Made by a program: the position numbers and the translations under genes. Of a DNA stretch of 64,000 bases, positions 1-21,957 are shown one piece after another. Every line of letters begins with the position of its first letter. Within the stretch, counting starts at the first letter, position 1. The stretch spans positions 322,110 through 386,109 of the forward strand of contig NZ_JBHUPY010000007.1 of NCBI RefSeq assembly GCF_042688385.1, read 5' to 3'. The DNA comes from Herpetosiphon sp. NSE202. Its GTDB lineage: Bacteria > Chloroflexota > Chloroflexia > Chloroflexales > Herpetosiphonaceae. A model generated the notes under the pieces. It was not told the DNA's origin, made no database searches, and saw nothing but the letters and a program-made list of their open reading frames with translations.

Positions 1-707
1 GCAATTTGGCCAACCGTGGCTTCGTATTTCTTGGCAATCTGATCAAGTGTGCCGCCAGGCACGGTTAGTTTGCCAGCAGCCAACGGGAACCACGGAATAA
101 AGGCAATTTGTTGGGCTTCGCAAGCATCGACCATACTTTCCCATTCGTGGTCGCCAATGCTATAGCGATTTTGCACTGAAACGATTGGTACAACTTTTTG
201 AGCTTGGGCCAGTTGTTCATTGTTAACTTCGCTCAAGCCAATATGTCGAATCTTGCCTTCGTTGCGCAAATCGCTCAACGCGCCCAACGATTCTTCCAAA
301 GGCACTTCGGCATCGATGCGGTGCAATTGATAAAGGTCGATGCGCTCAAGTTTTAATTGGCGCAAGCTTTTTTCGAGCGAGATGCGCAAGTGTTCAGGCC
401 GCCCATTCGAGTACCAAATGTTTGGGCCGCCACGCAGCAAGCCGCCCTTGGTCGCAATCACCATATCTGATGAATATGGATGCAAGGCTTCGCCGATCAA
501 GCGTTCGCTCACATCGGGGCCATATGAATCAGCGGTATCGATAAAATTCACCCCAAGTTCGGCAGCGCGGCGCAAGACAGCCTTCGCTTGTTCGCGGTCG
601 TTTGGCTCGCCCCAAATTCCATCGCCAGTGATGCGCATCGCACCATAGCCCAACCGCCGAATTTCGAGATCGCCACCAAGCTTAAATGTTAGAGAACCGA
701 GGCTCAT
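1..707 (-). CDS. aldo/keto reductase family oxidoreductase; N-terminal part only, the C-terminus lies beyond the window start
   Basis: Minus-strand frame opens at ATG (complement 705-707) with GGAGG 6 nt upstream. It reads MSLGSLTFKLGGDLEIRRLGYGAMRITGDG...NFIDTADSYG...IATKGG...DLYQLHR, which contains the AKR IDTAxxYG signature. The frame stays open to position 1, so it is absent from the ORF track for lack of a stop. Confidence 0.8.
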   Translation of the reverse strand, partial: MSLGSLTFKLGGDLEIRRLGYGAMRITGDGIWGEPNDREQAKAVLRRAAELGVNFIDTADSYGPDVSERLIGEALHPYSSDMVIATKGGLLRGGPNIWYSNGRPEHLRISLEKSLRQLKLERIDLYQLHRIDAEVPLEESLGALSDLRNEGKIRHIGLSEVNNEQLAQAQKVVPIVSVQNRYSIGDHEWESMVDACEAQQIAFIPWFPLAAGKLTVPGGTLDQIAKKYEATVGQI

Positions 708-803
708 CGAGCTTCCTCCACAACACAATCAATACCGTTCAGTACGGAACTTCATCTATTGTACCCCCAAAAACCCTAAAATTCAGGCTTATCGCTGGGG
801 AAT

Positions 804-1439
804 TTAATCGATCAAGCGGGTGGCAATATCGGGAACTTGAAAAAAGACCTCGCGGGGCGCATACGGTGCAAAATCTTGGATGCGGCTCATGCCCCAACCA
901 ACCGCGCCAAAAGCCAATTGGGCTTGCTTAGCGGCTTCTGCATCGCGAATTTCGTCGCCAACACACAGAATTTTTTCGCGCTCGAGGTTTGCTTTGCGCA
1001 CAATTCGTTCAAAGCGCGCTCGTTTGCGCAAAATCGGCACACTACATTCATAAAACTCAATTACATTGGCTAAGGCATCGCCCAGCACATGGCGCACATT
1101 CTCCTCGCTATTGCTACTGACCACGCCCAAACGCACATCGGCGGCACTCAACTGAGCCAAAATTATTTCCATACCCTCAAACAGCTGAATCTGCCGAATA
1201 TTCTGAGCCGCTAGTTGGCGAACATGCCGAGCAATGAGTGGCACTTTCCACCAAGCAACCTGCATATAGTTCATCACCTCGCGCGGGCTGCGGCCCCGCA
1301 ATTCGCTAAATTCCTTCGGCGTAAGTTGACGAAATTTATATTTTTCGGCCACCCCGTTGATCGCCTTGACCAACCAAGGAATCGAATCGGCCAACGTGCC
1401 ATCAAAATCAAACAGAATCAATTCGTATTTTTTCATCAC
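804..1439 (-). CDS. HAD-superfamily hydrolase (phosphatase-like)
   Basis: 211-aa ORF. N-terminal LILFDFDGTLADS is HAD motif I (DxDGT); GDEIRD matches motif IV. Normal GC. Confidence 0.8.
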   Translation of the reverse strand: MMKKYELILFDFDGTLADSIPWLVKAINGVAEKYKFRQLTPKEFSELRGRSPREVMNYMQVAWWKVPLIARHVRQLAAQNIRQIQLFEGMEIILAQLSAADVRLGVVSSNSEENVRHVLGDALANVIEFYECSVPILRKRARFERIVRKANLEREKILCVGDEIRDAEAAKQAQLAFGAVGWGMSRIQDFAPYAPREVFFQVPDIATRLID

Positions 1440-1587
1440 ATCACACCACTAAAATTGCTCATTGCTAAGCATACCTTGTGCTGGGCTAGTTGCCAATTCG
1501 GATAAGGTTCAATCTGGATGGAAGCCTTAGAAGCATCATCCGAAAAGCTGAAATTATACTTCAGTACTTGGTATAATAGCCAGTATC

Positions 1588-2061
1588 ATGATTCAGAAGA
1601 GGCGTATATTTATGTCAAATAAACTATCAGTAAATACGGTAAATCGTCAACTAAAGGCAGCATTAAGTCGTTTATTAAGAAAAGATCTTTGTTTACTAAA
1701 GCAAGGACTTCATGAACGGACAATCGTTCACAAATTTGCTACCTATCTACAAATTAAATTTCCTGATTGGGATGTGGATGTTGAATATAACAGAAATATT
1801 AATGATATTAAAGAGATTGTTATAGATTTAGAAGAAAAGAGAATTATTCCTGATATTATCATCCATCATCGGCAAACACATGAAAATTTACTTGCAATTG
1901 AAGTTAAAGCGTTACAAAGGCCTAACCGCAAATCTATAGCTAAAGATAAGATAAAGCTTCAACGCTATAAAGATCAATTAGGCTATGATTATGCCTGTTT
2001 TATCTTATTCATCGTAAAAGATTCAACTAATCCTGAGCCTTATACCATTGAATGGATCTAA
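1588..2061 (+). CDS. orphan low-GC hypothetical protein with a PD-(D/E)xK nuclease-like motif
   Basis: 157-aa ORF in a strikingly AT-rich (about 30% GC) island. TATAAT at 1572-1577; an alternative start at 1612 has a GAAGAGG SD-like sequence. The protein contains IIPDIIIHH...LLAIEVKALQR, i.e. hPD...(E)xK with YraN/Hjc-like spacing. Confidence 0.6.
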   Translation: MIQKRRIFMSNKLSVNTVNRQLKAALSRLLRKDLCLLKQGLHERTIVHKFATYLQIKFPDWDVDVEYNRNINDIKEIVIDLEEKRIIPDIIIHHRQTHENLLAIEVKALQRPNRKSIAKDKIKLQRYKDQLGYDYACFILFIVKDSTNPEPYTIEWI

Positions 2062-2109
2062 GCATCCAAGATTTTGGGCACAGTTTGGGCCAAAGTTGCC
2101 AATGAAACC
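2055..2109. repeat. degenerate direct-repeat copy of the 3' end of the adjacent sensor kinase gene
   Basis: gatctaagcatccaagattttgggcacagtttgggccaaagttgccaatgaaacc is about 85% identical to 2279-2333, which encodes the kinase C-terminus (SLATLAQTVRNILDA on the minus strand). This copy carries an indel and no longer preserves the frame. Confidence 0.6.
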
Positions 2110-2278
2110 AGAATGTTTAACGGAGAGGCGCAGAGTGTTTTTTGCACGCGAAGCACCCAAAGTTTGGGAATTGGAACCCTAACAACAATCCAACAAACAA
2201 ACGTTAGGGGGTGTAGGGGGCTGAAAACCCCCGGCGTTTCCCTCCGGCGGAGGGACGGAAGGGTGGCGAACGATGCAA

Positions 2279-2333
2279 GATCTAAGCATCCAAGATATTG
2301 CGAACTGTTTGCGCTAAAGTTGCCAATGAAAAC
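2279..2333. repeat. direct-repeat partner; the authentic 3' terminus of the kinase gene
   Basis: gatctaagcatccaagatattgcgaactgtttgcgctaaagttgccaatgaaaacgg; see 2055-2109. Confidence 0.6.
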
Positions 2334-4438
2334 GGCTTGCTAAGCAACAACGGTTGCTGCGCAAATTGCTGTTGTTGGGCCAAACTATGTTCAGAATAGC
2401 CTGAAATAAACAAAATTTTGAGGCTTGGGTCACGCTCGCTCACCAGCTGGCCTAGCTCAAAACCACCCATTTGCGGCATAACCAGATCACTGATCAACAG
2501 CTTAATTGTGCCTGTAGCGTGAGCCTGCAAGACTTCCAAGGCAGCTGAGCCGTGAGCTGCTTCTAGCACCCGATAGCCCAAGCCTTGCAGCATGCGCACC
2601 AAAACCGCCCGCACCTGTGGCTCGTCCTCGCTGACCAAGATGGTTTCGTTGCCTCGAGGCAGGTTTTGGCTAGCATTTGGCGACTCAATGGCGGGCATTT
2701 GCTCCGAACGCGGCAAATAGATTTTGATTGTTGTGCCACGATCAACTTCACTATACAAACTAATATGGCCACCATGTTGTTTGATAATTCCATAACTGGT
2801 TGCCAAGCCCAAGCCAGTGCCTTCGTGATCGCTTTTGGTGGTAAAAAATGGCTCAAATGCGCGGCTTTGCACTGCTTGCGTCATTCCAACCCCGCTATCA
2901 CTTACTGCAAACACCACATACTGGCCAATCGGCACATCAACATGGCTACGCGCATAGGCTGCATCAACCACCAGATTATGGGTTTCAACCAACAAATGCC
3001 CACCATTGGGCATCGCATCGCGCGCATTGACCACAAGATTTAAAAGCACTTGCTCAATTTGGCCTGCATCAGCCACAACGACATCAATAGCAGGGTCAAG
3101 CACAGTTTTCCAGTGAATTGATTCAGGCAAGACGCGCTTAATTAATTTTTCCATGGCAATAATTAAATCGTTAAGATTAATGATTTTTGGTTGGAGCTGT
3201 TGCTTGCGGGCAAAGGTTAATAATTGACTTGTGAGTAATGCAGCGCGATTCGTTGCATGTTGAATTTCAGTTAATTCTTCGAGCACTGGCAAACCATGCT
3301 GAAAACTATCAATCGCCAGCGTGGTATAGCCACTAATTGCTGTTAGCAAATTATTAAAATCATGAGCTACACCACCAGCCAAGCGCCCAATACTTTCCAT
3401 CTTTTGAGCCTGAATTAATTGCATTTGCAATTGATTGCGATCAGTTCGATCTTCTGTATGCACCATAATTAAATCTGGCTCAATAAAAACATAGCTTACA
3501 TATAAATCTCTGAATTGCTCGCTAAATTTAAATTGATAGCGTAACTCTTGATGAATTGTACTTTTTGTCTGACAACAACGCTGAAAATGATCGATGATTT
3601 CCGGATCATGTTGATAGACAATTTTGGCTGATTGGTTGACAAATTTGGTAATTGTGCCTTGCGTGATGGCAATAGCTGCATCGTTGTAGCTTTCGAGAAT
3701 AAAATCATTATCAACCCAACGCCATGTATAGGTTGGAATCGGAATCCCAGCATATTGGGCGCGAAATTGGTTTTCGCTAGCGCTCAATTGGGCAACTGCC
3801 AAACGCTGTAAACTTGCCAAGCGATAGACTACGCCAGCAATCATAATCAAAAAGATCGACCAACCCACTAAGACCAACGAATAGCGTTCCGATTGGCGTT
3901 TAATCGCTATTTCCAAATCAAGATACAGCCGATTTTCCAACTGCTCTGCTTCTAACTCAAGTTGCGAGAAGGCGATACGCCGATCGATCGTGGTTTGAGC
4001 GTGATTTTGGGGGCGATTGAGATGCTGCAATAACAAGCCGCGAAAATTGGCTAAATCTTGGTGATATTGGCTGAGCGCTTGGGCCATGGGTGGGGCTGGC
4101 GGCAGCAATTGCTCAAATACGGCAACCGGATTTTGGCCTTGCTGCCAATCATCAACCGCCAAAATTGCCCAATCAAGGTAGGCGATTGCATCTTGGGCCA
4201 ACAAGGTTTGGTTGCCATTTAGCACTTGCTCGGCAATCAAATAGCCGCGTTGCATATTCAAGCGGGCTTGAGTCAGGCCATTGAATGCAGTAATTTGGGT
4301 TTGAATCATTGCGCGCATTTGGGCATAATTGGCCTGCAACAAGCCAATTGAAACCAAGGCCACGCTCAATAAGGCGATTAATGGGCGTAATTCTTTGCGC
4401 CGCAGCCAAGCCAAAGCCTTCATGAGCCATGCTCGCAC
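2282..4438 (-). CDS. hybrid sensor histidine kinase with a periplasmic sensor region, PAS-like segment, HisKA, HATPase_c and C-terminal receiver domain
   Basis: 718 aa. N-terminus has a TM helix, a roughly 180-aa extracytoplasmic region and a second TM helix. H-box VAHDFNNLLTAISGY; G-box GTGLGLATSYGI; C-terminal REC domain (ILVSEDE...LISDLVMPQMGG...). Overlaps the upstream SBP gene by 19 nt. Confidence 0.85.
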   Translation of the reverse strand: MRAWLMKALAWLRRKELRPLIALLSVALVSIGLLQANYAQMRAMIQTQITAFNGLTQARLNMQRGYLIAEQVLNGNQTLLAQDAIAYLDWAILAVDDWQQGQNPVAVFEQLLPPAPPMAQALSQYHQDLANFRGLLLQHLNRPQNHAQTTIDRRIAFSQLELEAEQLENRLYLDLEIAIKRQSERYSLVLVGWSIFLIMIAGVVYRLASLQRLAVAQLSASENQFRAQYAGIPIPTYTWRWVDNDFILESYNDAAIAITQGTITKFVNQSAKIVYQHDPEIIDHFQRCCQTKSTIHQELRYQFKFSEQFRDLYVSYVFIEPDLIMVHTEDRTDRNQLQMQLIQAQKMESIGRLAGGVAHDFNNLLTAISGYTTLAIDSFQHGLPVLEELTEIQHATNRAALLTSQLLTFARKQQLQPKIINLNDLIIAMEKLIKRVLPESIHWKTVLDPAIDVVVADAGQIEQVLLNLVVNARDAMPNGGHLLVETHNLVVDAAYARSHVDVPIGQYVVFAVSDSGVGMTQAVQSRAFEPFFTTKSDHEGTGLGLATSYGIIKQHGGHISLYSEVDRGTTIKIYLPRSEQMPAIESPNASQNLPRGNETILVSEDEPQVRAVLVRMLQGLGYRVLEAAHGSAALEVLQAHATGTIKLLISDLVMPQMGGFELGQLVSERDPSLKILFISGYSEHSLAQQQQFAQQPLLLSKPFSLATLAQTVRNILDA

Positions 4439-5295
4439 GCCTGGAGAATACTGGCAGTTGAACGATTGGGCAATTGTTCGCGCGCAAAACCAAACGGCGC
4501 AATCAAGCCATAATGTTCGTCGCTGCCAATAAATCCAAGCAACTGCTGATCGATTGCGCTGCGTAAATGGGTATCAGCAGGGCGCATCGCAAACGCCCCA
4601 TAGCCAATACTCAGATTACCATCGATGATTGGCGGCACAAATGGCTGAGCACGTTCAACCTGATTTGGCGCTTGCTGAACTAAGAGATCGACGCTAATGT
4701 CGGTTAAGGCTAAGCCATCGGCCCGCCCGGCGAGCACTGCCGCCAAGCCAGTTTGCACATCGGGCACAAATAATAATTGCTGAGCATCAATCCCAAGGAT
4801 TTGGGCGATTGTTGCTTCCTCAGCGCCGCGCATCACCGCCAACCACCGATCAGGTCGCCGAAAATCGCTAAAACTCTGAATACGCAGGGGATTGCCAAAC
4901 TGAACCAAGATCGCGGGACTCAGGGCAAAAGTTGGTTGACTAAAAGCCAACAGCTGGGCACGTTCGCAGGTAATAAACATGCCGCTAGCAATCAGATCAA
5001 ACTTGCCAGCCTGCAAGCCAGGAATTAAATCGGCCCACTCGGTCTGAACCCATTCAAGCTGAGGGATGCCTAAGCGCTGCATAACCCATGTCATTACCAC
5101 CGCCGCCTCGCCGTGCATCTCGCCGCTGGCACTACGATAAGCAAACGGAGCTTCGGGAGCATAGCCAATCCGGATCATGCCAGTGCGTTGGGCACGTTCT
5201 AAGGTTGTTTCCACCGGAGTTGTCAGCCACCAGATTAAAGCAGTGGTAACAATAATCAGCGTTAAACCAGCAAAGCTCCACCATGCTCGACGCAT
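4420..5295 (-). CDS. periplasmic substrate-binding protein (SBP_bac_3 / amino-acid ABC-type family), probably the ligand-binding partner of the downstream kinase
   Basis: 291 aa with an N-terminal signal/TM segment (WSFAGLTLIIVTTALIWWL). It has a type-II SBP-like two-lobe sequence pattern. Its 3' end overlaps the kinase start, indicating translational coupling. Confidence 0.75.
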   Translation of the reverse strand: MRRAWWSFAGLTLIIVTTALIWWLTTPVETTLERAQRTGMIRIGYAPEAPFAYRSASGEMHGEAAVVMTWVMQRLGIPQLEWVQTEWADLIPGLQAGKFDLIASGMFITCERAQLLAFSQPTFALSPAILVQFGNPLRIQSFSDFRRPDRWLAVMRGAEEATIAQILGIDAQQLLFVPDVQTGLAAVLAGRADGLALTDISVDLLVQQAPNQVERAQPFVPPIIDGNLSIGYGAFAMRPADTHLRSAIDQQLLGFIGSDEHYGLIAPFGFAREQLPNRSTASILQACEHGS

Positions 5296-5465
5296 GCCAA
5301 AACCTCCAGCGCAAGAGGTTGCAGCAAGCTCACCAATTGCGAACTGCGATCAGCGAGTCAAGCGCAAAGTGCCTGATACTATTGGGCTATAGTATAACGC
5401 AGCTAGTTGAGGATAGCACTAGTACTACGCCGTTATCCGTACTAAAGAACTAGTGCACAGAGCTG

Positions 5466-5506
5466 AGGCCAGCAAAAAGCCCGGACTCGTGTGAGTCCAG
5501 GCTTTG
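5466..5506 (-). terminator. putative intrinsic terminator downstream of the zinc-ribbon gene
   Basis: Inverted repeat cccggactc-gtgt-gagtccagg. On the minus strand the hairpin is followed by CTTTTTGCTG. Confidence 0.4.
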
Positions 5507-5539
5507 CTTATAAGAGTGAGGATTGATTCCCCAGGGTTC

Positions 5540-5950
5540 TTACCAGCGGTTCGAGCGTGATGATGATTGTTGGCTTTGGAAGCAATCGCGGCAGTAAACT
5601 GGCTTGTCGCCACGTGGTACGAATGGCACTTGTGCAGGGCCGCCACATGATGAACAGGTGGTGGTGTGCATTTCGCGTTGACCGCGATCTGAGCTGAAGC
5701 CACCACGATCTGAGCTGTAACCACCACGGTCTGAGCCATAGCTGCTGCGGCTGTAGCCACCACCGCCGCCACGGCTTGAGCTTTCGTAGCCACCGCCACC
5801 GCGATTTTGTTTGCGGGCTTGGCGGCAGTTTGAACAGCGAGTTGGCTCGTTGTCAAAGCCCTTTTGAGCGTAAAATTCTTGTTCGCCAGCGGTAAATACG
5901 AACTCGTTGCCACAATCGCGGCAGTTCAACGTCTTGTCGGTAAAGCTCAT
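5540..5950 (-). CDS. double zinc-ribbon (CxxC...CxxC) protein with a central Gly/Arg/Ser-rich RGG-like low-complexity linker
   Basis: 136 aa. N-terminal CRDCGNEFVFTAGEQEFYAQKGF...CSNCRQ and C-terminal CSSCGG...CRDCFQ, separated by (GGGGY/SSDRGG)n repeats. GGAGAAACAAGCTA precedes the ATG. The overlapping 5425-5913 ORF in the other frame is Ala-rich and judged spurious. Confidence 0.7.
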   Translation of the reverse strand: MSFTDKTLNCRDCGNEFVFTAGEQEFYAQKGFDNEPTRCSNCRQARKQNRGGGGYESSSRGGGGGYSRSSYGSDRGGYSSDRGGFSSDRGQREMHTTTCSSCGGPAQVPFVPRGDKPVYCRDCFQSQQSSSRSNRW

Positions 5951-6233
5951 TAGCTTGTTTCTCCAACTATGGTAAGGGATTCCAATTGTTTCAGGTTGGA
6001 GTCACGAAGCTCAGGGAAGAGATTGCATATCCACTCAGTCCGAGGTAATGTGAGGAACCAAACCATGTCAACGCAATCATTGTACCAAAACTATCTACAA
6101 TTTACAAGAGGCAAAATGTGCTTTTTTGCCACGAGTTTAATCATGCGGGGTAGCTAGGGGTGAAAAAGTGGTTAAACTATGGTGGCAAAGGGTAGGTAGC
6201 TAGTTAGCCCACCCTACCCTTTACCCAACATGC

Positions 6234-7370
6234 TTAGCTGCCGAAGATTTTGCTCCAGAAGCCACGCTCTTTTTGCTCGAAATGATCCATGCCCATGGTC
6301 TCGCCAAGTTTCTGGAACAGTTCGCGCTGGTCTTCGTTGAGTTTGGTTGGCACGCGCACTTTAACCACGACCATTTGATCACCACGGCGGCCTAAGTTGC
6401 GTCCCGATGAATCGATGTAGGGCACGCCTTTGCCGCGCAAGGTAAAGACTGTCCCATCTTGAGTGCCCGCTGGCACATTCAACGGCTCGTCGCCATCAAC
6501 GGTTGGCACGTTTAATTGTGCACCCAAGGCTGCTTGCACAATGTTAATTGGCAGTTGCAACAGAATATTGTTCTCTTCACGCACAAAGAAATCGTGTGGC
6601 TGCACCCGTAAATTAACATAGAGATCGCCAGCAGAGCCACCACTTGGCCCGCTATCGCCAGCACCACCAATTCGAATCCGCATGCCATCATCAACCCCAG
6701 CTGGTACGGTCAATTTGCGCTTGACGGTTTCACGAACGCGGCCTTCGCCGCGACAGGTTTTACATGGAATCGGAATAATCACGCCGCGCCCAGAACATTG
6801 ATCACAGGTGGTGACGGTGACCATATTCAGGAACGTGCGCACCCGCATCTCACCTGAGCCTTGGCATTTAGGACAGCGGGTTGGCTCGGTGCCAGGTTCA
6901 GCGCCGGTGCCGCCACAAGGCCCACACGATTCAAGCCGCCGGTAATCAAGCTCTTTTTCGGTGCCAAAAATTGCTTCTTCAAAGCTAATCACCAAATCGG
7001 CGCGTAAATCGGCTCCTTGGCGCGCGCCACCACGGTTGCCGCCGCGTGCACCTTGGCCAAAGAAGGCATCGAAGATGGTGCTAAATGGATCACCGCCAGC
7101 GCCACCAAAGCCCGAAAATGGGTCGAAGCCTTGGCCGCTACTGCCAGCGTGACCAAATTGATCGTACATGCGGCGCTTTTGATCGCTCGAAAGCACCTCG
7201 TAGGCTTCGGTTGCCTCTTTGAATTTGTTTTCGGCTTCTGCATTGCCGGGGTTGCGGTCGGGGTGATATTGCATGGCCAACTTGCGGTAGGCCTTTTTGA
7301 TCTCGTCAGGTGAGGCACTTTTGCCCACACCTAGTACTTCGTAGTAGTCGCGTTTTGCCTCAGTTGCCAT
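6234..7370 (-). CDS. dnaJ: molecular chaperone DnaJ
   Basis: J-domain (YYEVLGV...HPDRNP), G/F-rich region, four CxxCxGxG zinc-finger repeats and a C-terminal domain; 378 aa. Confidence 0.95.
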
Positions 7371-7615
7371 ACATATCCCTTATGTAGAAGGATGAAGGAT
7401 GAGGGATGAATTATGAACATCCCCAGCATCCACACCTTAGTTAATCTTGTAGAAGGATGAGGGATGAATTATGAACATCCCCAAACCTTTATACCTTAGG
7501 TTTGTAATGTAAGTTCTGCGCTTGATGTCTAAATTACATATTCAATAATAAAGAATGAAATAACCTTTCTAAATTCATAATTCGTCTATTTCATCCTTCA
7601 TAATTCATAATTCCG
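7371..7615 (-). promoter_or_regulatory. structured AT-rich dnaK-dnaJ intercistronic region with tandem and inverted repeats
   Basis: 245 nt at about 35% GC. Two tandem 35-42 nt repeats (gtagaagga[tgaagga]tgagggatgaattatgaacatcccca at 7384-7425 and 7449-7483), each holding a gggatg-N9-catccc hairpin. Complementary gaattatgaa / ttcataattc motifs lie near the dnaK stop (7588-7614). Confidence 0.4.
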
Positions 7616-9472
7616 TTAGAGTTCTACTTCGTCGGCGTTGCCTTGTTCTTGGCTGGAGGTTTCTGGCTCGATGCCAAAATCGGGTGCTGGCTTGAGCCGT
7701 TGCATTGCCACGCTCAATTCAGCAGTGCGATTGTTGATCGCTTCCATATCGTCGCCATCAAGCACCGCGCGCAGGGCCGCAATCCGATCTTCGACGGTGT
7801 TTCGAGCTGAGTAATCCACATTCTCATCTGCTTCGCGCAACATGCGATCGGCGGCGTAGATTACGCCATCGGCTTTGTTGCGAGTTGCAATTTGATCGCG
7901 ACGAAGGGCATCACTATCGGCGTGATCTTCAGCATCGCGAATCATCGAGGCAATTTCATCATCGTTTAGGCCCGATGATGGCGTGATGGTGATTTTTTGC
8001 TCTTTATTCGTCGCTTTATCGGTCGCGCTGACATTAACAATCCCATTGGCATCAATATCAAAAATAACTTCAATTTGCGGCACGCCACGCGGCGCGGCAG
8101 GAATGCCATCGAGGGTAAAGCGCGCCAACGATTTATTGTGACGGGCTTCAGCGCGTTCACCTTGCAACACATGAATTTCGACGCTATTTTGATTATCGCT
8201 CGCAGTTGAGAAAATTTGCGAGCGCTTGGTCGGAATCGTGGTGTTGCGATCAATCAGCGGAGTCATTACGCCGCCATAGGTTTCGATGCCCAAGGTTAAT
8301 GGCGTTACGTCAAGCAACAGCACATCGGTTACATCGCCCGAAAGCACGCCCGCCTGAATTGCCGCGCCAATCGCCACCACTTCATCGGGATTCACGCCTT
8401 TGTGTGGGTCTTTGCCAAAGAATTTTTTGACGGCTGCTTGCACAGCTGGCATGCGGGTTTGACCACCAACCAAAATCACTTCATCAACTTCGCTGGCCTT
8501 CAAACCAGCATCTTGCAAAGCGAGCTTGATTGGTTTGAGCGTGCGTTCGACCAAATCGGCGGTCAATTGCTCAAGTTTGGCGCGGGTTAAAGTCGTGTTC
8601 AAGTGTTTGGGGCCGCTAGCATCGGCGCTGATAAATGGAAGCGAAATATCGGTTTGCAGCACGCTCGAAAGTTCTTGCTTGGCCTTTTCGGCAGCTTCTT
8701 TCAAGCGTTGCAAGGCCATGCGGTCGCTGCGCAAATCGATATTATTTTCGCGTTGAAACTCACTTGCCAGCCAGTCGATAATCTTTTGATCGAAATCATC
8801 GCCGCCGAGGTGGGTATCGCCGTTGGTTGCGCGAACCTCGAATACCCCATCGCCAAGCTCCAAAATTGAAACGTCGAAGGTGCCGCCACCAAGGTCATAG
8901 ACGACAATTAATTCGTTGGTGTTGCGATCCAAGCCATAGGCCAAGGCGCTGGCGGTTGGCTCGTTGATGATGCGCAATACTTCGAGGCCAGCAATTTTGC
9001 CAGCATCTTTGGTCGCTTGACGCTGCGAATCATCAAAATAGGCCGGAACCGTAATCACAGCTTGGGTGACAGGCTCGCCCAAATAGGCTTCGGCATCGGC
9101 TTTGAGTTTTTGCAAAATCATGGCCGAAACTTCTTGGGGCGAATAATCGCGACCGCCCATCAAAACTCGCGCATCGCCATTGGGCGCGCTGGTCATGCGA
9201 TAGGGAATCAAATCTTTATCACGTTGAACGCTAGGATGATCTAATTTACGGCCAATAAAGCGCTTGACTGAGTAAATTGTATTTTCGGGATTGGTGACCG
9301 ATTGGCGCTTGGCCACTAAGCCAACCGTGCGTTCACCGTTTTTGCTCAAGGCGACAATTGAAGGCGTGGTGCGTGCGCCTTCAGCGTTGGGAATCACCAC
9401 CGCCTCGCCACCTTCCATGACCGCAACCACTGAATTGGTTGTTCCAAGGTCAATACCGATCACTTTACCCAT
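7616..9472 (-). CDS. dnaK: molecular chaperone DnaK (Hsp70)
   Basis: [18 protein letters not shown]...[10 protein letters not shown]...C-terminal EEVD-like end. The ORF-track start at 9505 is an upstream extension; the conserved N-terminus begins at ATG 9470-9472, preceded by GGAGCAATAGCAAT. Confidence 0.95.
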
Positions 9473-10141: not shown

Positions 10142-11206
10142 CTATTCTGTTGGTTCTATTTTGCGTTCGCCGTATAAATCGCCCATCAGATCGCTCATAA
10201 CCCCAGCGATATAACGCACGCTAGAGATTGAGCGTGGATAGGCCATGCGGCGCGGCCCTAAAACTCCGACGACTCCGGCAACATCGCCATTAACTCCGTA
10301 GCGCGAAAGAATCACGCTATAATCGCGCAACTCATCGCGGCTATGCTCGCCGCCGATAATCACTTGCACGCCATCGGAGGCCAAAGCTTGGGGAATGAGC
10401 GATTCGAGCATCGTGCCGCCTTCGAGAATCGAAAGCACCTCGCGTACCCGCGTCACCTGGCCAAACTCTGGTTGATGCAGCATTTCAAGCAAGCCATCGT
10501 GATGAATTAATTCGTTGACATGCTCCTCGAATTGTTGCATTGCCCGCGCCACGCTCTCGATCACCAGCATTTCAAAACTGCTGAGCGGTGGCTGGGCCAC
10601 AGGCTGCGTCAACGCAAGCGCCGCAATCGCCTTGGCCGAAGCTTCATGACAAAGCTCGTTAATCCGGCCAGCGATTCTGCTAAGTTGCTCTTGGGTGGTG
10701 TTGGGGTCGGCGGGCAGCGTTTGTTGCTTAACCGAGCCTTCGTGCAACACCAACACCATCAACACCAAGGCATCGTTGATCGCAATCAATTCAATATGTT
10801 TAAAGCGACTTTCATAGGCGCGCGGTGGGGTAACCACGGCTGCGGTTTGGGCAGTTCGGGCCAAAACCGCTGCTGCCAAATGAATCCATTGGTTCAATTC
10901 CGAGCGGATTTGATAGAACTGATGTTGGATCATGCGCTGTTCTTGGGTGGAAAGCGCCGCCCGATCCATCAAATTTTCGACAAAGAAGCGATAGCCAGCA
11001 TCGGTGGGCAAGCGCCCTGCAGACGTATGCAAATGGGTCAAAAGGCCAGCATCTTCTAAGGCCGCCATTTCGTTGCGGACAGTTGCTGAGCTAACCCCTA
11101 AACTCCGCGCAAGATCTTGCGAGGCGACTGGTGTTGCCGTATCGATATATTGTTGGATCACTGCCTTAAGCACCCGTCGTCGCCGCTCATTGAGTTCTAG
11201 ATTCAT
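10142..11206 (-). CDS. hrcA: heat-inducible transcription repressor HrcA
   Basis: 354 aa. N-terminal winged helix ([70 protein letters not shown]) typical of HrcA. It is the first gene of the hrcA-grpE-dnaK-dnaJ operon. Confidence 0.9.
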
Positions 11207-14679: not shown

Positions 14680-14686
14680 CGGGAGG

Positions 14687-14728
14687 CCCTCACCCCCAGC
14701 CCCTCTCCCACTCAACGCGGGCGAGGGG
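14687..14728. repeat. half-copy (single arm) of the G-rich palindromic MITE/REP-like element family
   Basis: ccctcacccccagcccctctcccactcaacgcgggcgagggg is the reverse complement of the right arm found in the five full copies. Confidence 0.6.
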
Positions 14729-14770
14729 AGCACTGGTCTCGTGGTTAACCTGGTATATCATACGAATAAC

Positions 14771-14816: not shown

Positions 14817-17117
14817 TTAGCGCCCAAATGCCGTCAAGGCGCGCTGGCTCAATAGTTCATCTGGCAGCGGAAACTGGGCAGTAAGCTGGCCATGGCTGCG
14901 CTCTTGAATCAAATTACCTGCCACCCCCACCAAAACCAGCGTTTCCGCATCGGCACTAACAACCGCATGATTATGCAATGGCAACTCATCGCTCCATTCC
15001 AAGGCCCCTGTTGCGGCGGCATAAACCCGATATTGCTTGCCGAGCACAGGCTGTTGCAAACTGCGTTGCCACCACAAGCGCGTGCCATCAGCCGACCAGC
15101 CGACAATTGGGGTGGTGGTTACCATCGGCCCACTTGGTTGTTGATCAAGCACGTGCCATGTTTGGCTAGCATGATCGTAACGCTGCAATTGAGCCATGCC
15201 CTGCGCCGAATCGACCGTCACGGCGGCCAAGGCTGAGCCATCGGGAGCGAAGGCAAGGGCATGGTCTGAGCTAAGCGGCAAACTGAGCGTGCTTGAGGTT
15301 TGGTTGGTTAAATCCCACCAAACCAGCTGTTGCTCAGTGGCAGTTTGACTTTGGCGATAGACCAAGGTTTGTTGGTTGGCACTAACCCACGTTTGCGGCT
15401 GATACGGCAATTCGGCCAACAGCTCAATTTTCGCTTGTTGGTTGAGTTTCATTGTGACAAAAAAAGACTTGCGGTTAACCATATTTGTTGGTTCATCGTG
15501 CAACAAGCCATAGATTGTTTGTGCCTGCCATGCAAGCGGCTCAAACTCTGGCGGATTAGCAAAAGAGACCATAGCTTGAATTAATGAATGCGGATTGGTC
15601 GTAAGATCCACATGAAATATCTGTGGGGCAAAGCGATAGGCTCCATTTGTAACAAGCAGTGCCTCTTGTCCATTAGGTGCAATTAAGCCATAGCTCGCAT
15701 ATGCTAAATCAGATTCTATCTTTGCATAATTAATTTCATGATGAGTTTGGGTTTGGGGATCATAGAGCCATAGTGTATCAGACGACTTGTCGCGGTAAAG
15801 CGCCAAAGCAGGGAGATTAGGCCGATTAATTAGTAAGCGTATATTAAGCTTTTCAATCTGTTGATCGCTCAGCACGGTTGAATAGATCGCGTATGTCGAG
15901 TTCCATTCTTCGGCTAAAAGTGCCATTTGATAGGCTGGTTGACTGGGTAACACCAGTTGGGTTGGTGATGGCTTCGCTATTGGCAAAGTCTCTGCTAAAC
16001 TAGGTTGTTCAGGCCAAAGCCACAACCGCTCAATACCTTCACCATAGCTTTGGTTCAGATCGAGCCATGTATGCTGCTGCGTAGCAGGATGCCAAAGATC
16101 AACAAAGTTGGTCATTTTGGTTTGCATTTCATAGGTATACCAATAGCCAGCTTGATAGCTAGGAACGAGGTTAATCCCTAGCCCAGAATGATAGTCTTCG
16201 AGTAATTGACCTGTTTTGAGGCTATACATTTGCCAATGATTATGTGGCGGATACTCATACCCAAACGCAATTTGATCGAGGTTAGGTGCAACTATCATAC
16301 TAAAGGGATCAAGTGCTAACGCTGGCGAAAGCTCAATCGTACGGATTGGCGAACCATCAAACGCATTCAACTCAATTACGGTTTGGCGATTGGCAAGCAC
16401 AAAAAGTCGTTGTTGGCTCGATGTGACTAAACCTTCAACGCTGGCCAAAGTTAAGTTGTGGTTGCGTGGTGCATACAGCCAAAGTTGATAACTATTGTGC
16501 GGTTGAAACCAAAAATCGCCAGTTGCGCTAAGCCAGCCTGATCTAATTGTTGAAACTTTCGTGAGGATTGTTTGCTCTAAAACGATCCCGTCACTTAATC
16601 GCACATGCAGCCAACCCATGGGCAGATCAAGTATTTTGCCACGCCGTCCATACACAATATAGACTCCTTGAGCATCCTGATCAAGAGTAACGAATGGATC
16701 AAGCGAGCCAAACAAATCGGGTGCGGCCACCTCCCACACGACCTTATTCTCTTCCAGATCAAACAAACACAATGTTTCATACTTAAAGCAAATCATCATT
16801 GAGGTGTTTGGAATCGCAGAAACTAGCCATGGTTCATACAAACGTTGGGCCGTTAACGTACCAGCCGTGGTTAGCCATGCATAATGCTTATCAAGCTCAG
16901 TTCCAGGCCGAGTTATCTTCATCAACACCCGCTCAGTGGTCGGTATGCTCAAGGCTTGGGTGGGCGTGGCAATTGGCTGGCTTGGGCTGGCTTGGGCTGC
17001 CGACGGCAAAGTTGGCGTAGCTTGCGGAATGACCGTTGGCGTGGACTGTTGCGCTTGGCAATTGCTCAACAACCCAACCAATACCCCCAATAAAAGCATT
17101 CGATAGACTTTTTGCAT
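14817..17117 (-). CDS. paralog A0 of the tandem family: large lipoprotein with beta-propeller (PD40/YVTN-like) repeats
   Basis: 766 aa. Lipoprotein signal MQKVYRMLLLGVLVGLLSNCQAQQ is nearly identical to that of 19624-21954. Pro/Thr/Ser-rich linker; repeated APDG/SADG motifs; the most divergent member. Confidence 0.75.
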   Translation of the reverse strand: MQKVYRMLLLGVLVGLLSNCQAQQSTPTVIPQATPTLPSAAQASPSQPIATPTQALSIPTTERVLMKITRPGTELDKHYAWLTTAGTLTAQRLYEPWLVSAIPNTSMMICFKYETLCLFDLEENKVVWEVAAPDLFGSLDPFVTLDQDAQGVYIVYGRRGKILDLPMGWLHVRLSDGIVLEQTILTKVSTIRSGWLSATGDFWFQPHNSYQLWLYAPRNHNLTLASVEGLVTSSQQRLFVLANRQTVIELNAFDGSPIRTIELSPALALDPFSMIVAPNLDQIAFGYEYPPHNHWQMYSLKTGQLLEDYHSGLGINLVPSYQAGYWYTYEMQTKMTNFVDLWHPATQQHTWLDLNQSYGEGIERLWLWPEQPSLAETLPIAKPSPTQLVLPSQPAYQMALLAEEWNSTYAIYSTVLSDQQIEKLNIRLLINRPNLPALALYRDKSSDTLWLYDPQTQTHHEINYAKIESDLAYASYGLIAPNGQEALLVTNGAYRFAPQIFHVDLTTNPHSLIQAMVSFANPPEFEPLAWQAQTIYGLLHDEPTNMVNRKSFFVTMKLNQQAKIELLAELPYQPQTWVSANQQTLVYRQSQTATEQQLVWWDLTNQTSSTLSLPLSSDHALAFAPDGSALAAVTVDSAQGMAQLQRYDHASQTWHVLDQQPSGPMVTTTPIVGWSADGTRLWWQRSLQQPVLGKQYRVYAAATGALEWSDELPLHNHAVVSADAETLVLVGVAGNLIQERSHGQLTAQFPLPDELLSQRALTAFGR

Positions 17118-17138
17118 AGCCTTCTTCCTCTCTGGCTC

Positions 17139-19574
17139 CTATGGTTGCGAATAGACATATTCAATAGTTGATAATTGCGATGAATAAATTGGCTCTAAAG
17201 CAGCGAATTTGGCCAACGGCAACCAGTGTTGATTGACCCGCTCTAGAACATACAGATCCTTGAACGTATCCAAAACTACGCGCTGGCCAAACCAATCACT
17301 TTTGCTTAGATTGAACGAATCAGCCAAGAGCAGCGCATGGCCAATTTGGCTGCTACGGCTAAACGTCAGCAAGCGCGAATTAATCATTTGATTGTCGGCA
17401 AGCAAGTAGTATTGACTATCACCCGACCATGTACCTTGAAAACTCTTCGACTGCGGCTGGCGCAGCAACTCCAAACCCGTTGCACTATCAAACATCAAGA
17501 GCGTGCCATAGTCCAAGGGATAGGTGCGCTCAAACAGCATAATCGTCTGGCCATCGGGCGCAATCTCAATTTTAAGCGCCTTGCTGGCACTGGTTGGCAT
17601 GAGCAATTGGGTCAGTTGGCTGACGATTGAATAGCGCTGAATTTGATCGTGGGGATCTTGATAGACAACAATTGGCGAGCCAACCGTATACCAAAGCTGC
17701 TGCACATCAGTCGAATCGAGCAAATCGGTGCCTTGGCTTGGATCATTGAATGCCGTTTGCCATAACAGATAGCTATCAGCACCAGAGTTCGAAGTAAGGC
17801 CAACAATCGTCAACTGGCGACCATCCCAATAGATTGGGGTTAAGTAGGTTGCGGCGGGCAGTTCGGCAAAAACACTCCTTTTGCCAGTTTGCAGATCAAG
17901 GGCAAGGCACCGATTGACCCGTGAACGTGTATTGCCATCGAAATAATAGCTATAGCAAAGCGCCACGCTGCGATTATCCGGCGCACTGACTCCCGCCACA
18001 TCACTCCACATTCGATTTTCGGCTGGTTCTAAATCAATAGTGATGGTAGTTTGGCTAGTAGGGTCAAATAGCGCCAAATCTTCATCATTAAGCCCAATCA
18101 GGAGCGGTGGTGCATGCTGCCGCGCAATGCTATAGCTATTTGCATGCTGCATCAATTCACTCCAGCCTTGAGGCCAAAGTTGCTTTATGCCCACACCATC
18201 ATTGGCCAATGCCAAAGGTTGATCTTCGACTGGCGCAGCAGCAAGCGGGGCATTCTCTGGCAGCGTTAGCCGTAAGGGTTCTAAGCGAGGAGTATCGACG
18301 ATGGGCAACAGGGAGAGCTTAGGAATAAGGGTAAACCTGCTATATTCTGGCTGCGTTGTTTCAGGTTGATGGACCGGTTCGATAGTTTGAGTTTGGTTGG
18401 TTGTCAGATCAATTGTTTCCAAGCTCCCATTGCGATTGAGCATAATTAAGCGTTGATCATCAAGAAAGCGAATGCGTTGGCTAAACCCAGTTTGATTCAG
18501 ATCTAGTGCTGCAAAGGCTAATAAGCGTTGCCAAAAGCCAAGCCCATTGCCAGCGCGATCGTAGGCAAAAATCTGCTGCGGTGAATCATAATCTTCGGAG
18601 GGGTCGATAATGACAACCACATAAGTGAGTTCGGGCGAAACCAGCATCTCCTGAATGCTAGTAGCGCGGGGTAAATGTAAAAATTCAGTTTGGTTGAGCG
18701 TTTGACGCGTGCGCAAATCGATTTCGCTGACCATGCCCGAACCAAAGACCAAGGCCCGCTGGCCGTCGGCGGCCACCGCAGCAAACTCAAGCTGACTAAA
18801 CCATGGTTCGGCAAAGCCTTCACTGGCAGCATCAAAGCCAAACAATTGACCGTCGGCCAAAAGCCATGGGCCAGCAGCGGTTGGCAAGACTTTGGGTTGT
18901 TGGCGCAGTAGCGGCGCTTGATATTGGCGCAATTCCAGACCACTGCGGCTATCCAGCCCACGCAAACGCACCGTCGCAGGCTGAAATGGGTCATTCGTGG
19001 CTTGCTTTTCGATTAACCAAACCACGTCCATAAACGGATCGTTGACCACATCCAAAATGCTGGTTTCAACGTGAGCTTGTTGGCTATAAATTGGCACTTG
19101 CCACAAACGCTGATCATCGCGCAAAGAACGGGCTTCGAGCCAGGCATAATTGCGCCCCAACAGCACTTCACGCTCGCGATCAATTGTGATTATCGGCTCT
19201 TGATCGATGAGCTTGCCTCGCGTTTGAGGCTGATTAACACCATCCCAGATTGTAAGTTCAGCCCCACTCCCAACCAACACGAGCTGCTGATCACCTAGAT
19301 CAAGCGTATCGCTGGTGGGAAGTGGCTGACTCGGCTGCGGCTGACTTGGCTGCGGCTGGGTTGCAATACTCGGGGTTACGATTGCTTCCGCAACCATGGT
19401 GGCGGTTGGAGCAGGTGCTGGGGGCGCTGGCGTTTGGGCCGCCAAAATCATGGCGATTAATAAGCCAATCCCAGCCAGCACCGGCAGAATTTGCCAGCGA
19501 CGGCCTGAACCGCCAATCTTGGCGCGCTGCGAATGTTCTTCCATCAGCAATACCTCTCGTAGGGTTGCCCTCAT
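17139..19574 (-). CDS. paralog A1: signal-anchored large beta-propeller-repeat protein
   Basis: 811 aa. Short cytoplasmic N-terminus plus TM (RRWQILPVLAGIGLLIAMILAA), PAPPAPAPT linker, conserved core LEARSLRDDQRLWQVPIYSQQAHVETSILDVVNDPF...KQATNDPFQPATVRLRGLDSRSG, APDGQ and WSGDS motifs, C-terminal ...YVYSQP. Confidence 0.75.
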   Translation of the reverse strand: MRATLREVLLMEEHSQRAKIGGSGRRWQILPVLAGIGLLIAMILAAQTPAPPAPAPTATMVAEAIVTPSIATQPQPSQPQPSQPLPTSDTLDLGDQQLVLVGSGAELTIWDGVNQPQTRGKLIDQEPIITIDREREVLLGRNYAWLEARSLRDDQRLWQVPIYSQQAHVETSILDVVNDPFMDVVWLIEKQATNDPFQPATVRLRGLDSRSGLELRQYQAPLLRQQPKVLPTAAGPWLLADGQLFGFDAASEGFAEPWFSQLEFAAVAADGQRALVFGSGMVSEIDLRTRQTLNQTEFLHLPRATSIQEMLVSPELTYVVVIIDPSEDYDSPQQIFAYDRAGNGLGFWQRLLAFAALDLNQTGFSQRIRFLDDQRLIMLNRNGSLETIDLTTNQTQTIEPVHQPETTQPEYSRFTLIPKLSLLPIVDTPRLEPLRLTLPENAPLAAAPVEDQPLALANDGVGIKQLWPQGWSELMQHANSYSIARQHAPPLLIGLNDEDLALFDPTSQTTITIDLEPAENRMWSDVAGVSAPDNRSVALCYSYYFDGNTRSRVNRCLALDLQTGKRSVFAELPAATYLTPIYWDGRQLTIVGLTSNSGADSYLLWQTAFNDPSQGTDLLDSTDVQQLWYTVGSPIVVYQDPHDQIQRYSIVSQLTQLLMPTSASKALKIEIAPDGQTIMLFERTYPLDYGTLLMFDSATGLELLRQPQSKSFQGTWSGDSQYYLLADNQMINSRLLTFSRSSQIGHALLLADSFNLSKSDWFGQRVVLDTFKDLYVLERVNQHWLPLAKFAALEPIYSSQLSTIEYVYSQP

Positions 19575-21954: not shown

Positions 21955-21957
21955 CGT

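What the first reader, a model, noticed from the sequence alone, without database searches (positions are those of the whole stretch)
1560..2340. Low-GC orphan gene with a PD-(D/E)xK-like motif adjacent to a degenerate duplicate of the kinase gene 3' end (insertion scar)
Region 1560-2060 is about 30% GC against about 50% elsewhere, so it looks horizontally acquired. Its single ORF (157 aa) contains RIIPDIIIHH...LLAIEVKALQR, matching the hPD...ExK catalytic core of YraN/Hjc-like small nucleases. Immediately 3' there is a 55-bp sequence (2055-2109) that is an about 85% copy of the last 55 bp of the neighbouring hybrid kinase gene (2279-2333). The two bracket 165 bp that includes a GGGGG-ctgaaaa-CCCCC hairpin. 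This duplicated gene end is the kind of scar left by site-specific or illegitimate integration next to the kinase 3' end, yet no integrase is present. The orphan may be a stranded cargo gene, for example a nuclease, toxin or defence fragment.
Basis: partly seen in the sequence, partly recalled or inferred. Interest (0 to 1): 0.6.

Follow-up and report, generated by a model that had tools for sequence, protein, structure and literature searches.

The report
Solo defence-type nuclease gene beside tandem repeat
The low-GC "orphan" is a small restriction-endonuclease-fold gene related to one part of a known three-gene E. coli anti-phage system. It sits alone in a variable slot of Herpetosiphon genomes, and the "insertion scar" beside it is a 220-225-bp tandem repeat that relatives without the gene also carry.

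Summary
All the sequence observations hold.
- The gene at 1612-2061 has the lowest GC in the 64-kb window (0.31, z = -5).
- It carries an invariant E...PD...ExK motif.
- A 53-55-nt copy (87-89% identical) of the kinase 3' end lies 224 bp from the real end.

The integration-scar reading fails. The closest relatives, H. giganteus and H. geysericola, lack the gene yet carry 2.0 and 2.8 tandem copies of the same unit (kinase end plus spacer). The nuclease gene lies outside the two copies.

Four other Herpetosiphon loci hold very divergent alleles (46-77% aa) at the same site, and the allele tree disagrees with the flanks. The slot therefore looks like a recombination-exchanged cassette site. The gene is probably an accessory, defence-type nuclease.

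Verdict: new member of a known kind, modest interest.

The parts
804..1439 (-). HAD-family hydrolase gene, the conserved left flank of the variable slot
   Evidence: ORF. The syntenic gene has Pfam HAD hits in L001, L082, L084, L106 and L108. Amino-acid identity to the L001, L082 and L084 genes is 94-98%.
1488..1497 (+). AGTTGCCAAT microhomology at the left edge of the variable slot. The same 10-mer occurs at 2094-2103 and 2318-2327.
   Evidence: One search shows these are the only three occurrences in the first 8 kb. One search shows all loci diverge immediately after GTTGCCAAT. One search shows each repeat unit starts with its reverse complement, ATTGGCAAC.
1479..2054 (+). Nuclease-gene cassette (576 bp, GC 0.33). 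This is the only segment of window 1-8000 with no counterpart in H. giganteus, where 233 bp of repeat spacer and tail stand instead.
   Evidence: blastn of the window against L106. Contiguous 95.8% identity over 8000->2055 and 95.1% over 1478->1, with nothing in between. GC.
1548..1577 (+). Promoter-like site with an extended -10 (TGgTATAAT, 1569-1577), followed by GAAGAGG about 9 nt before ATG 1612
   Evidence: Promoter scan (10/12 matches, TG present). The -10 and ribosome-binding regions are conserved in the H. gulosus and L082 alleles.
1612..2061 (+). 149-aa PD-(D/E)xK-fold protein of the PD-lambda-3 A family. The longest ORF starts at 1588 (157 aa). Catalytic candidates: E35 (1714-1716), D81 (1852-1854), E97 (1900-1902), K99 (1906-1908). 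A further invariant motif is D56-x-E58.
2055..2109 (-). Head of the second tandem-repeat unit: a non-functional copy of the kinase 3' end (SLATLAQTVPKILDA*). Its pseudo-stop (2058-2060) overlaps the nuclease gene's stop codon (2059-2061).
   Evidence: It differs at 2 of about 52 positions from the head of unit 2 in H. geysericola.
2110..2278 (-). Spacer of repeat unit 1 (169 bp), the kinase's downstream non-coding region
   Evidence: Aligns with the spacers of L106 units 1-2 and L108 units 1-3. No Rfam family reaches its threshold. The fold is not better than shuffles, z = -0.9 to -1.2.
2204..2271 (-). Dispersed two-hairpin element (CCCTCC-gcc-GGAGGG and GGGGG-ttttcag-CCCCC on the kinase strand). 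REP-like, possibly a terminator module.
   Evidence: Copies at 92-94% identity in L085 at 10253-10320, 10524-10588 and at the unrelated site 918-983. Partial inverted copies lie upstream of the nuclease gene in L001 and L082. The terminator scan did not flag it.
2279..2333 (-). Head of repeat unit 1, which is the true 3' end of the kinase gene (SLATLAQTVRNILDA*, stop at 2282-2284)
2282..4438 (-). Hybrid histidine kinase with a C-terminal receiver domain, the conserved right flank of the slot
   Evidence: ORF. The syntenic gene has Pfam HisKA/HATPase_c/Response_reg hits. Amino-acid identity to the L001, L082 and L084 genes is 81-92%.

Best explanation
There are two separate things here.

(1) The gene. 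1612-2061 encodes a stand-alone 149-aa nuclease-fold protein of the PD-(D/E)xK type, with active-site candidates E35, D81, E97 and K99. [quoted passage not shown] Here it stands alone, with its own promoter.

It occupies a variable slot between the 3' end of a hybrid kinase gene and the promoter of a HAD hydrolase gene. In the genus Herpetosiphon this slot holds one of two things. It holds either a non-coding spacer with hairpin elements ("empty") or one of several deeply divergent, always AT-rich alleles of this gene ("occupied"). In occupied loci the gene converges on the kinase and their stop codons overlap.

The alternatives appear to be exchanged by homologous recombination through the conserved flanks. 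That pattern is typical of accessory defence genes. I infer, but have not shown, that the protein is a Mg-dependent DNA nuclease acting in defence against foreign DNA.

(2) The 55-bp duplicate. It is not an integration scar. It is the head of the second unit of a 220-225-bp tandem repeat (last ~52 bp of the kinase gene plus ~169 bp downstream). The unit is bounded by the microhomology ATTGGCAAC. The repeat exists in the gene-less sister species.

In this strain the nuclease cassette replaces the spacer of unit 2. The most likely route is recombination between an occupied allele from another Herpetosiphon lineage and a two-unit empty allele. The crossovers would lie at the kinase-end-like head of unit 2 and in the HAD upstream region.
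For: Fold and family:
- The motif is invariant across 22 homologues.
- The AF2 model is confident.
- PD-Lambda-3_A HMM E = 5.4e-28 over profile positions 18-145 of 159.
- 44% identity to the A gene of an A-B-C operon on E. coli plasmid p22Q34-1. That operon spans 2,759 bp, the same length as the PD-lambda-3 coordinates in the supplement of PMC9519451.
- The family profile finds 5,577 clusters.

Variable slot:
- Occupied loci with a 4-bp stop overlap: L001, L082/L083/L100, L084, L105.
- Empty loci: L106, L108, L109, L085.

Discordant allele history:
- Window against H. llansteffanensis (L084): flanks 91-98% aa with dS 0.32-0.45, but the gene is 46% aa with pS 0.75 (saturated).
- Window against H. 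gulosus (L001): flank dS 0.72-1.03, but gene dS 0.46.
- L001 against L082: flanks 95-100% aa, gene 56%.
- Gene dN/dS is 0.29-0.46, so it is constrained.

Defence-type neighbourhoods of solo homologues elsewhere: CBASS; ThiF/MPN plus UvrD; AbiH, restriction endonuclease, PLD and a DEAD helicase.

Tandem repeat:
- TRF reports period 225 x 2.8 copies in L108 and period 220 x 2.0 copies in L106.
- The units align with window 2333-2055.
- The window aligns contiguously with L106 through the 55-bp copy.
- AGTTGCCAAT occurs at 1488, 2094 and 2318.
Against: - No biochemical or phenotypic data exist for any solo family member. Even for PD-lambda-3, the papers read here do not report the individual role of A.
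- In Herpetosiphon the neighbours are housekeeping genes, not a defence island.
- The direction of the event (gain here or loss in sister species) rests on parsimony with only nine loci.
- The gene's lower dS against H. gulosus could partly reflect AT-biased codon constraint in a 149-codon gene.
- The right-hand crossover cannot be placed, because the remnant resembles the recipient-clade repeat rather than any known donor.
- An independent, differently bounded duplication of the kinase end in L085 shows that something recurrent happens at this gene end. Simple slippage does not fully explain that.
Confidence: 0.62

Rival explanations
1. A mobile element integrated site-specifically or illegitimately at the kinase 3' end and brought a replacement gene end, as phage e14 does at icd. 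It later decayed. What remains is a duplicated end, 165 bp of element DNA, and the nuclease gene as stranded cargo.
For: The duplicate keeps the kinase reading frame, and most differences are synonymous, as in e14/icd-type duplications. The gene is AT-rich and absent from the closest relative.
Against: The nuclease gene lies outside the two copies. Gene-less H. giganteus and H. geysericola have the same duplicate plus further complete units in perfect tandem. No recombinase appears among the genes called in the conserved synteny of five genomes. In four genomes the gene abuts the real kinase end with no duplicate at all.
Confidence: 0.05
2. The occupied hybrid arrangement is ancestral to the window/giganteus/geysericola clade. 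The sister species lost the gene, by deletion between ATTGGCAAC microhomologies or by gene conversion from unit 1. The window strain did not gain it.
For: H. llansteffanensis, whose flanks are the next most similar to the window after H. giganteus and H. geysericola, is occupied. An unequal crossover between the two 55-bp heads of a window-like arrangement would directly give the pure occupied type. The 9-10-bp microhomologies could mediate deletion.
Against: It needs at least two independent losses, each followed by regrowth of a similar array. The window allele is unrelated to the llansteffanensis allele (46% aa, pS saturated). It is closer in dS to H. gulosus than the flanks are, which points to import.
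Confidence: 0.25
3. The protein is a housekeeping or repair nuclease (a structure-specific resolvase like Hjc/RecU) or a catalytically inactive DNA-binding protein. It would have no role in defence, and its variability would reflect relaxed constraint on a dispensable gene.
Against: The presence/absence polymorphism within one genus argues against a core repair role. The nearest characterised relative is a defence-system component. Several solo homologues sit beside CBASS, AbiH or restriction genes. The catalytic residues are invariant and dN/dS is below 1, which argues against decay.
Confidence: 0.2

Closest known systems
PD-lambda-3 component A (E. coli ECOR28; Vassallo et al. 2022, PMC9519451; PADLOC model PDLC03986)
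   Same: Same protein family: HMM E = 5.4e-28, and 44% identity over 124 aa to an enterobacterial plasmid copy. Same size (149 against 159 aa) and the same E...PD...ExK core. The weak Pfam and PDB relatives are also shared (BsuBI_PstI_RE from the Pfam scan, BpuSI from the solved-structure search, and HSDR_N_2 in one family member), matching the HHpred list in the paper's supplement.
   Different: PD-lambda-3 is a three-gene operon: A, plus B (TIGR02391/Ymh HEPN with an AbiJ N-terminal domain), plus C (a propeller protein annotated as a restriction endonuclease). It acts by abortive infection. Here B and C are absent from the whole 64-kb window and from every solo locus examined. The gene has its own promoter and housekeeping neighbours.
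PD-(D/E)xK restriction-endonuclease-like superfamily (Cas4 SSO0001 4ic1, 3ijm, BpuSI N-terminal domain 3s1s, Hjc 1gef/1hh1)
   Different: Sequence similarity is too low for family membership. No Pfam or NCBIfam model reaches its threshold. There are no Cas4 cysteines or Fe-S cluster. An extra invariant motif WDVDxEYNR is present.
Alternative cassettes at one chromosomal locus exchanged through conserved flanks (for example the DpnI/DpnII restriction cassettes of Streptococcus pneumoniae; from my own knowledge, not checked here)
   Same: Mutually exclusive contents sit in a fixed slot bounded by conserved genes. The cassette phylogeny is discordant with the flanks, and no mobility gene is present.
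   Different: Here one alternative is non-coding repeat DNA. The coding alternatives are alleles of a single small gene with no methyltransferase. Natural transformation in Herpetosiphon was not examined.
Duplicated gene 3' ends created by integrative elements (e14 or phage 21 at icd, giving the icdC pseudogene; from my own knowledge)
   Same: There is an in-frame, mostly synonymous, non-functional copy of the last codons of a gene a short distance downstream.
   Different: No element or integrase lies between the copies. The copies are heads of a regular tandem array of 2-2.8 units in relatives. The accessory gene lies outside them.

Membership tests
PD-(D/E)xK nuclease superfamily | Alpha-beta-beta-beta-alpha-beta core fold | tested here: met
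PD-(D/E)xK nuclease superfamily | Acidic residue on the first core helix, D at the start of strand 2, and (D/E)xK on strand 3 | tested here: met
   E35 is nearly invariant. P80, D81, E97 and K99 are invariant in 22 homologues.
PD-(D/E)xK nuclease superfamily | Metal-dependent phosphodiester cleavage | not testable with these tools
   Needs purified protein and active-site mutants.
PD-lambda-3 A protein family | Significant full-length match to the family profile | tested here: met
   PDLC03986 E = 5.4e-28, protein residues 20-141 on profile positions 18-145 of 159. Homologues P0009, P0016 and P0018 also match at E = 1e-28 to 1e-32.
PD-lambda-3 defence system | Adjacent component B (TIGR02391/Hypoth_Ymh HEPN protein) | tested here: not met
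   The neighbours are a HAD hydrolase and a hybrid kinase. tblastn with E. coli B finds nothing better than E = 4.7 in the window.
PD-lambda-3 defence system | Adjacent component C (Mrr-like nuclease plus beta-propeller) | tested here: not met
   tblastn with E. coli C gives a best E of 0.22 in the window, with no coherent hit.
PD-lambda-3 defence system | Abortive-infection protection against phage | not testable with these tools
   The phenotype is reported only for the E. coli three-gene system (PMC9519451; PMC13190303).
Integrative-element att duplication (e14/icd type) | Recombinase or element DNA between the duplicated gene ends, with the cargo inside the copies | tested here: not met
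   Only 169 bp of non-coding spacer lies between the copies. The nuclease gene lies outside them. No recombinase appears among the genes called in the syntenic regions.
Integrative-element att duplication (e14/icd type) | Relatives lacking the cargo have a single copy of the duplicated sequence | tested here: not met
   Gene-less H. giganteus has 2.0 units and H. geysericola has 2.8 units. Only the distant L109 has a single copy.
Tandem repeat (minisatellite-like) array | Head-to-tail copies of one unit with a constant period | tested here: met
   TRF on L108 (period 225, 94% matches) and L106 (period 220, 97% matches). The window holds 1.25 units that align to them. TRF itself reports nothing in the window.
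Free-standing homing endonuclease | Cleaves the empty allele near its own insertion site and is copied in by repair | not tested
   Only circumstantial evidence: presence/absence at a fixed intergenic site and discordant phylogeny.

The most novel reading that the evidence does not exclude
The solo PD-lambda-3 A-like protein is a free-standing, homing-type endonuclease. It would cut the empty kinase-end/HAD-promoter slot and be copied in by double-strand-break repair. On this reading, the recurrent and independently bounded duplications of the kinase 3' end are repair scars of that cleavage. The duplications are the 55-bp heads in the NSE202/giganteus/geysericola clade and the 91-bp copy in L085. 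The evidence does not exclude this. PD-(D/E)xK homing endonucleases of about 150 aa exist (I-Ssp6803I, from my own knowledge). The gene shows site-specific presence/absence with discordant phylogeny. However, the deep divergence of alleles at one site and the family's varied contexts elsewhere argue against it.
Probability: 0.05. Interest if true: 0.65.

Novelty: new member of a known kind. Interest (0 to 1): 0.3.

Why it matters
The result turns an apparent orphan plus "scar" into two ordinary, explainable features.

Two points may interest defence-system specialists.
- Component A of PD-lambda-3 belongs to a very large family (more than 5,000 50%-identity clusters). In the contexts sampled outside Enterobacteriaceae the gene stands alone, sometimes beside CBASS, AbiH or restriction genes. 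It may therefore be an autonomous effector, not just a subunit.
- The Herpetosiphon slot offers a clean natural experiment. It has empty loci and several deeply divergent alleles in otherwise collinear genomes, which suits the study of how single defence-type genes are swapped by homologous recombination without mobile-element machinery.

The tandem array is also a caution. A duplicated gene end does not by itself indicate integration.

Tried and rejected
- The genome-contig scan with the whole kinase protein returned 80 generic histidine kinases from other phyla and no orthologous locus. That spent the only scan of the collection.
- A search with the kinase N-terminal half found just one useful orthologue (P0023, giving L085).
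- The metagenome pattern scan for the gene/kinase stop-overlap junction gave 11 loci, of which only L100 was a Herpetosiphon locus.
- Rfam on 1400-2400 gave only a sub-threshold Clostridiales-2 hit (17.5 bits against a cut-off of 58.6).
- Folding the 220-nt intergenic region on either strand was no better than shuffles.
- No intrinsic terminator was flagged.
- TRF finds nothing in the window itself.
- Pfam and NCBIfam give no family assignment.
- Longer family members showed no informative fused domains.
- Neighbours of the Kyrpidia, L087, L088 and L090 homologues have no PADLOC hits.
- The phage collection gave a single weak hit.
- The afdb50 fold library was unavailable.
- P0183 contigs were too short to reach the slot.
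- I considered homology-facilitated illegitimate recombination as the origin of the 55-bp copy. I dropped it once the same copy was found in gene-less relatives.
Full report
**Source and layout.** The window protein is 100% identical to a hypothetical protein of Herpetosiphon sp. NSE202. The region reads as follows:
- aldo-keto reductase (partial, minus strand)
- HAD hydrolase, 804-1439 (minus)
- the AT-rich ORF, 1588/1612-2061 (plus)
- 220 bp of non-coding DNA
- hybrid histidine kinase with receiver domain, 2282-4438 (minus)
- SBP_bac_3 protein, a zinc-ribbon protein, DnaJ and DnaK

**Checking the observation.**
- GC of 1612-2061 is 0.309 against a window mean of 0.511. It is the lowest 450-bp stretch in 64 kb, z = -5.
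- The direct repeat is 2055-2107 against 2279-2331, 53 nt at 89%, spacing 224. The chance expectation is about 2e-11 for the whole window.
- Read on the kinase strand, the copy is in frame: LVSLATLAQTVPKILDA* against PFSLATLAQTVRNILDA*. It is therefore a copy of a coding end, not a chance match.
- The GGGGG-ctgaaaa-CCCCC hairpin is at 2216-2232, and a second hairpin lies at 2240-2254.
- The likely start codon is ATG 1612 (149 aa), not 1588. NCBI annotates 149 aa. The H. gulosus allele starts at the aligned ATG. A TGgTATAAT extended -10 (1569-1577) and a GAAGAGG ribosome-binding site precede it and are conserved.

**What the protein is.**
- Pfam and NCBIfam give nothing above threshold. The only Pfam hit is BsuBI_PstI_RE at E = 0.016.
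- The PADLOC library gives a clear match to PD-Lambda-3_A: E = 5.4e-28, profile positions 18-145 of 159.
- An alignment of 22 homologues has D56, E58, P80, D81, E97 and K99 invariant and E35 nearly invariant.
- AlphaFold2 on that alignment gives pLDDT 83.6 and pTM 0.81, with the order helix, three strands, helix, strand.
YraN/Hjc are only superfamily-level relatives.

**Relation to PD-lambda-3.**
- The supplement of Vassallo et al. 2022 (PMC9519451) lists PD-lambda-3 as "Nuclease, HEPN" with three proteins. A is a small protein with weak PD-(D/E)xK HHpred hits led by BpuSI_N. B is Hypoth_Ymh plus AbiJ_NTD3. C is a propeller protein.
- Saxton et al. 2026 (PMC13190303) use PD-lambda-3 as an abortive-infection control.
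- I found the same architecture on E. coli plasmid p22Q34-1 next to brxL. It has a 159-aa hypothetical protein, a TIGR02391-family protein and a "restriction endonuclease". It spans 2,759 bp, the same length as the published coordinates.
- The window protein is 44% identical to that A protein over 124 residues, E = 1e-29.
- tblastn with B and C finds nothing in the window or in any solo locus. The gene is a member of the A family, but the locus is not a PD-lambda-3 system.

**Not an orphan.** A profile search of 1.84 billion cluster representatives finds 5,577 proteins at E <= 1e-3 and 753 at E <= 1e-30. Nearly all of the best 150 are stand-alone proteins of 126-200 aa. Sampled contexts fall into three groups:
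- Canonical A-B-C on the E. coli plasmid examined; other enterobacterial plasmids carry homologues whose context was not checked.
- Solo beside CBASS, beside ThiF/MPN plus UvrD on Xanthomonas pXCV183, and beside AbiH, a restriction endonuclease, PLD or a DEAD helicase on rhizobial plasmids.
- Solo among ordinary genes in Kyrpidia, a metagenomic contig and Photobacterium.

**The slot in Herpetosiphon.**
- Occupied loci: H. gulosus (L001), a metagenomic lineage (L082/L083/L100), H. llansteffanensis (L084) and a short contig (L105). In each, an allele sits at exactly this position. It converges on the kinase, with a 4-bp overlap that includes both stop codons, and there is no duplicate.
- Empty loci: H. 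giganteus (L106), H. geysericola (L108), L109 and L085 have no such gene.
- All alleles are AT-rich (0.285-0.317), whereas the flanks are 0.44-0.56.
- Allele history disagrees with flank history.
  - The window is closest to H. llansteffanensis among occupied loci in its flanks (HAD 97.6%, kinase 91.8%, dS 0.32-0.45). Yet the two alleles share 46% of residues and their synonymous sites are saturated (pS 0.75).
  - The window allele is closest to that of H. gulosus (77% aa). Its dS of 0.46 is lower than the flank dS of 0.72-1.03.
  - L001 and L082 have 95-100% identical flanking proteins but alleles that are 56% identical.
- dN/dS of the gene is 0.29-0.46, against 0.02-0.14 for its neighbours. 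The gene is constrained but evolving fast.
- All loci diverge immediately after GTTGCCAAT (window about 1497) on the HAD side and at the kinase stop on the other side.
- This pattern fits a cassette slot whose contents are exchanged through the conserved flanks.

**The "scar".**
- The window aligns with H. giganteus, the closest genome, at 95.8% without interruption from 8000 down to 2055. That stretch runs through the kinase end, the 169-bp spacer and the 55-bp copy. The alignment resumes at 1478 (95.1%). Only 1479-2054 is window-specific, and it replaces 233 bp in L106.
- In H. giganteus the 55-bp copy is followed by a second complete spacer. H. geysericola has three units.
- TRF reports period 220 x 2.0 copies (97% matches) and period 225 x 2.8 copies (94% matches). 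The aligned units are shown.
- Each unit starts with (t)tcATTGGCAAC inside the kinase's last 18 codons. The array ends at acATTGGCAAC in the HAD upstream region. The 10-mer AGTTGCCAAT occurs at 1488, 2094 and 2318. This fits an origin of the array by unequal exchange between these short repeats (my inference).
- The window's remnant differs at only 2 of about 52 positions from the head of unit 2 in H. geysericola. It therefore descends from the array, not from whatever brought the nuclease gene.
- The window thus holds unit 1 (2333-2110), then the head of unit 2 (2109-2055), then the nuclease cassette where the spacer of unit 2 should be.
- The core of the spacer (2204-2271) is a dispersed two-hairpin element. 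It is also found at an unrelated site in L085 and, inverted, upstream of the gene in L001 and L082.

**Most likely history (inferred).**
- A two-unit empty allele recombined with an occupied allele from another Herpetosiphon lineage. One exchange was in the HAD upstream region. The other was at the kinase-end-like head of unit 2, not at the real kinase end.
- Gain in the NSE202 lineage is more parsimonious than two losses, because both nearest relatives have empty arrays and the allele's dS points to import. With nine loci I put this at about 65:25 against the loss scenario.
- L085 carries an independent duplication of the kinase end with different bounds (91 bp, between two 175-bp hairpin-element copies). 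Duplication of this gene end is therefore recurrent and not fully explained.

**Function (inferred).**
- The invariant active-site residues, the confident fold and purifying selection argue for an active nuclease.
- Three lines favour a defence-type role: the presence/absence polymorphism, the deep allelic divergence with discordant phylogeny, and the persistent AT-richness. So do membership of a family with a validated defence representative and the defence-gene neighbours of several solo homologues. The role could be, for example, a modification- or structure-dependent restriction activity or an abortive-infection effector.
- Nothing here tests activity, specificity or phenotype. Housekeeping neighbours in Herpetosiphon weaken the guilt-by-association argument. 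I put an active nuclease at about 0.65 and a defence function at about 0.4.

**Verdict.**
The fold, the accessory status and the defence relationship are right. "Orphan", "integration scar" and "stranded cargo" are not.
- This is a new, solo member of a known protein family in a recombination-exchanged slot, next to an ordinary tandem repeat.
- Interest is modest (0.3). The points that could repay follow-up are the size and mostly solo state of the PD-lambda-3 A family, and the clean empty/occupied allelic series in Herpetosiphon.

Noticed in passing
window 14686-14746, 31726-31789, 37834-38028, 40902-41066, 55038-55147, 59409-59542: A family of GC-rich palindromic intergenic elements (core CCCCTCGCCCGCG..AGTGGGAGAGGGGCTGGGGGTGAGGG) recurs in both orientations. 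It is REP-like and distinct from the two-hairpin element at 2204-2271.
   Followed up: no
window 17035-24292 and 24908-31628: Two runs of tandem paralogous segments. One has three copies spaced about 2.4 kb apart and the other has two to three copies spaced about 2.87 kb apart, at 60-82% identity. They are probably tandemly duplicated genes (families D1-D5 and D9-D20).
   Followed up: no
window 59226-59260 / 59668-59702: A 35-nt inverted repeat made of CGCGAAGGACACGAAG-type motifs, with arms 407 nt apart (I6).
   Followed up: no
L085 10053-10696 (ENA ERZ25039510 contig_27353): This empty-type locus has its own, differently bounded duplication of the kinase 3' end (91 bp, 76% identical). It lies between two copies of a 175-bp element that shares the 68-bp hairpin core with window 2204-2271. 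A third copy of the core lies at L085 918-983, between a peptidase M4 gene and hrcA. The kinase and hrcA genes are split in this long contig, probably by sequencing frameshifts.
   Followed up: partly
L090 343-3078 and L091 239-2974 (JGI metagenomes): A 150-aa family member lies next to an unannotated 229-aa gene. That gene directly abuts a CBASS-type pair (Cap15-like effector and CD-NTase). TatD and QueC-like genes lie further on.
   Followed up: partly
L109 3435-3659 (Logan ERR14008475): This is the minimal empty slot. The 225-bp spacer has no hairpin element and no kinase-end copy, and it carries short CACGAATT(g/a) repeats. Even the empty spacers are unrelated between lineages.
   Followed up: partly
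window 3400-3600: A second, milder GC dip (0.325-0.38) lies inside the kinase gene. It corresponds to the sensor region just before the HisKA domain.
   Followed up: no
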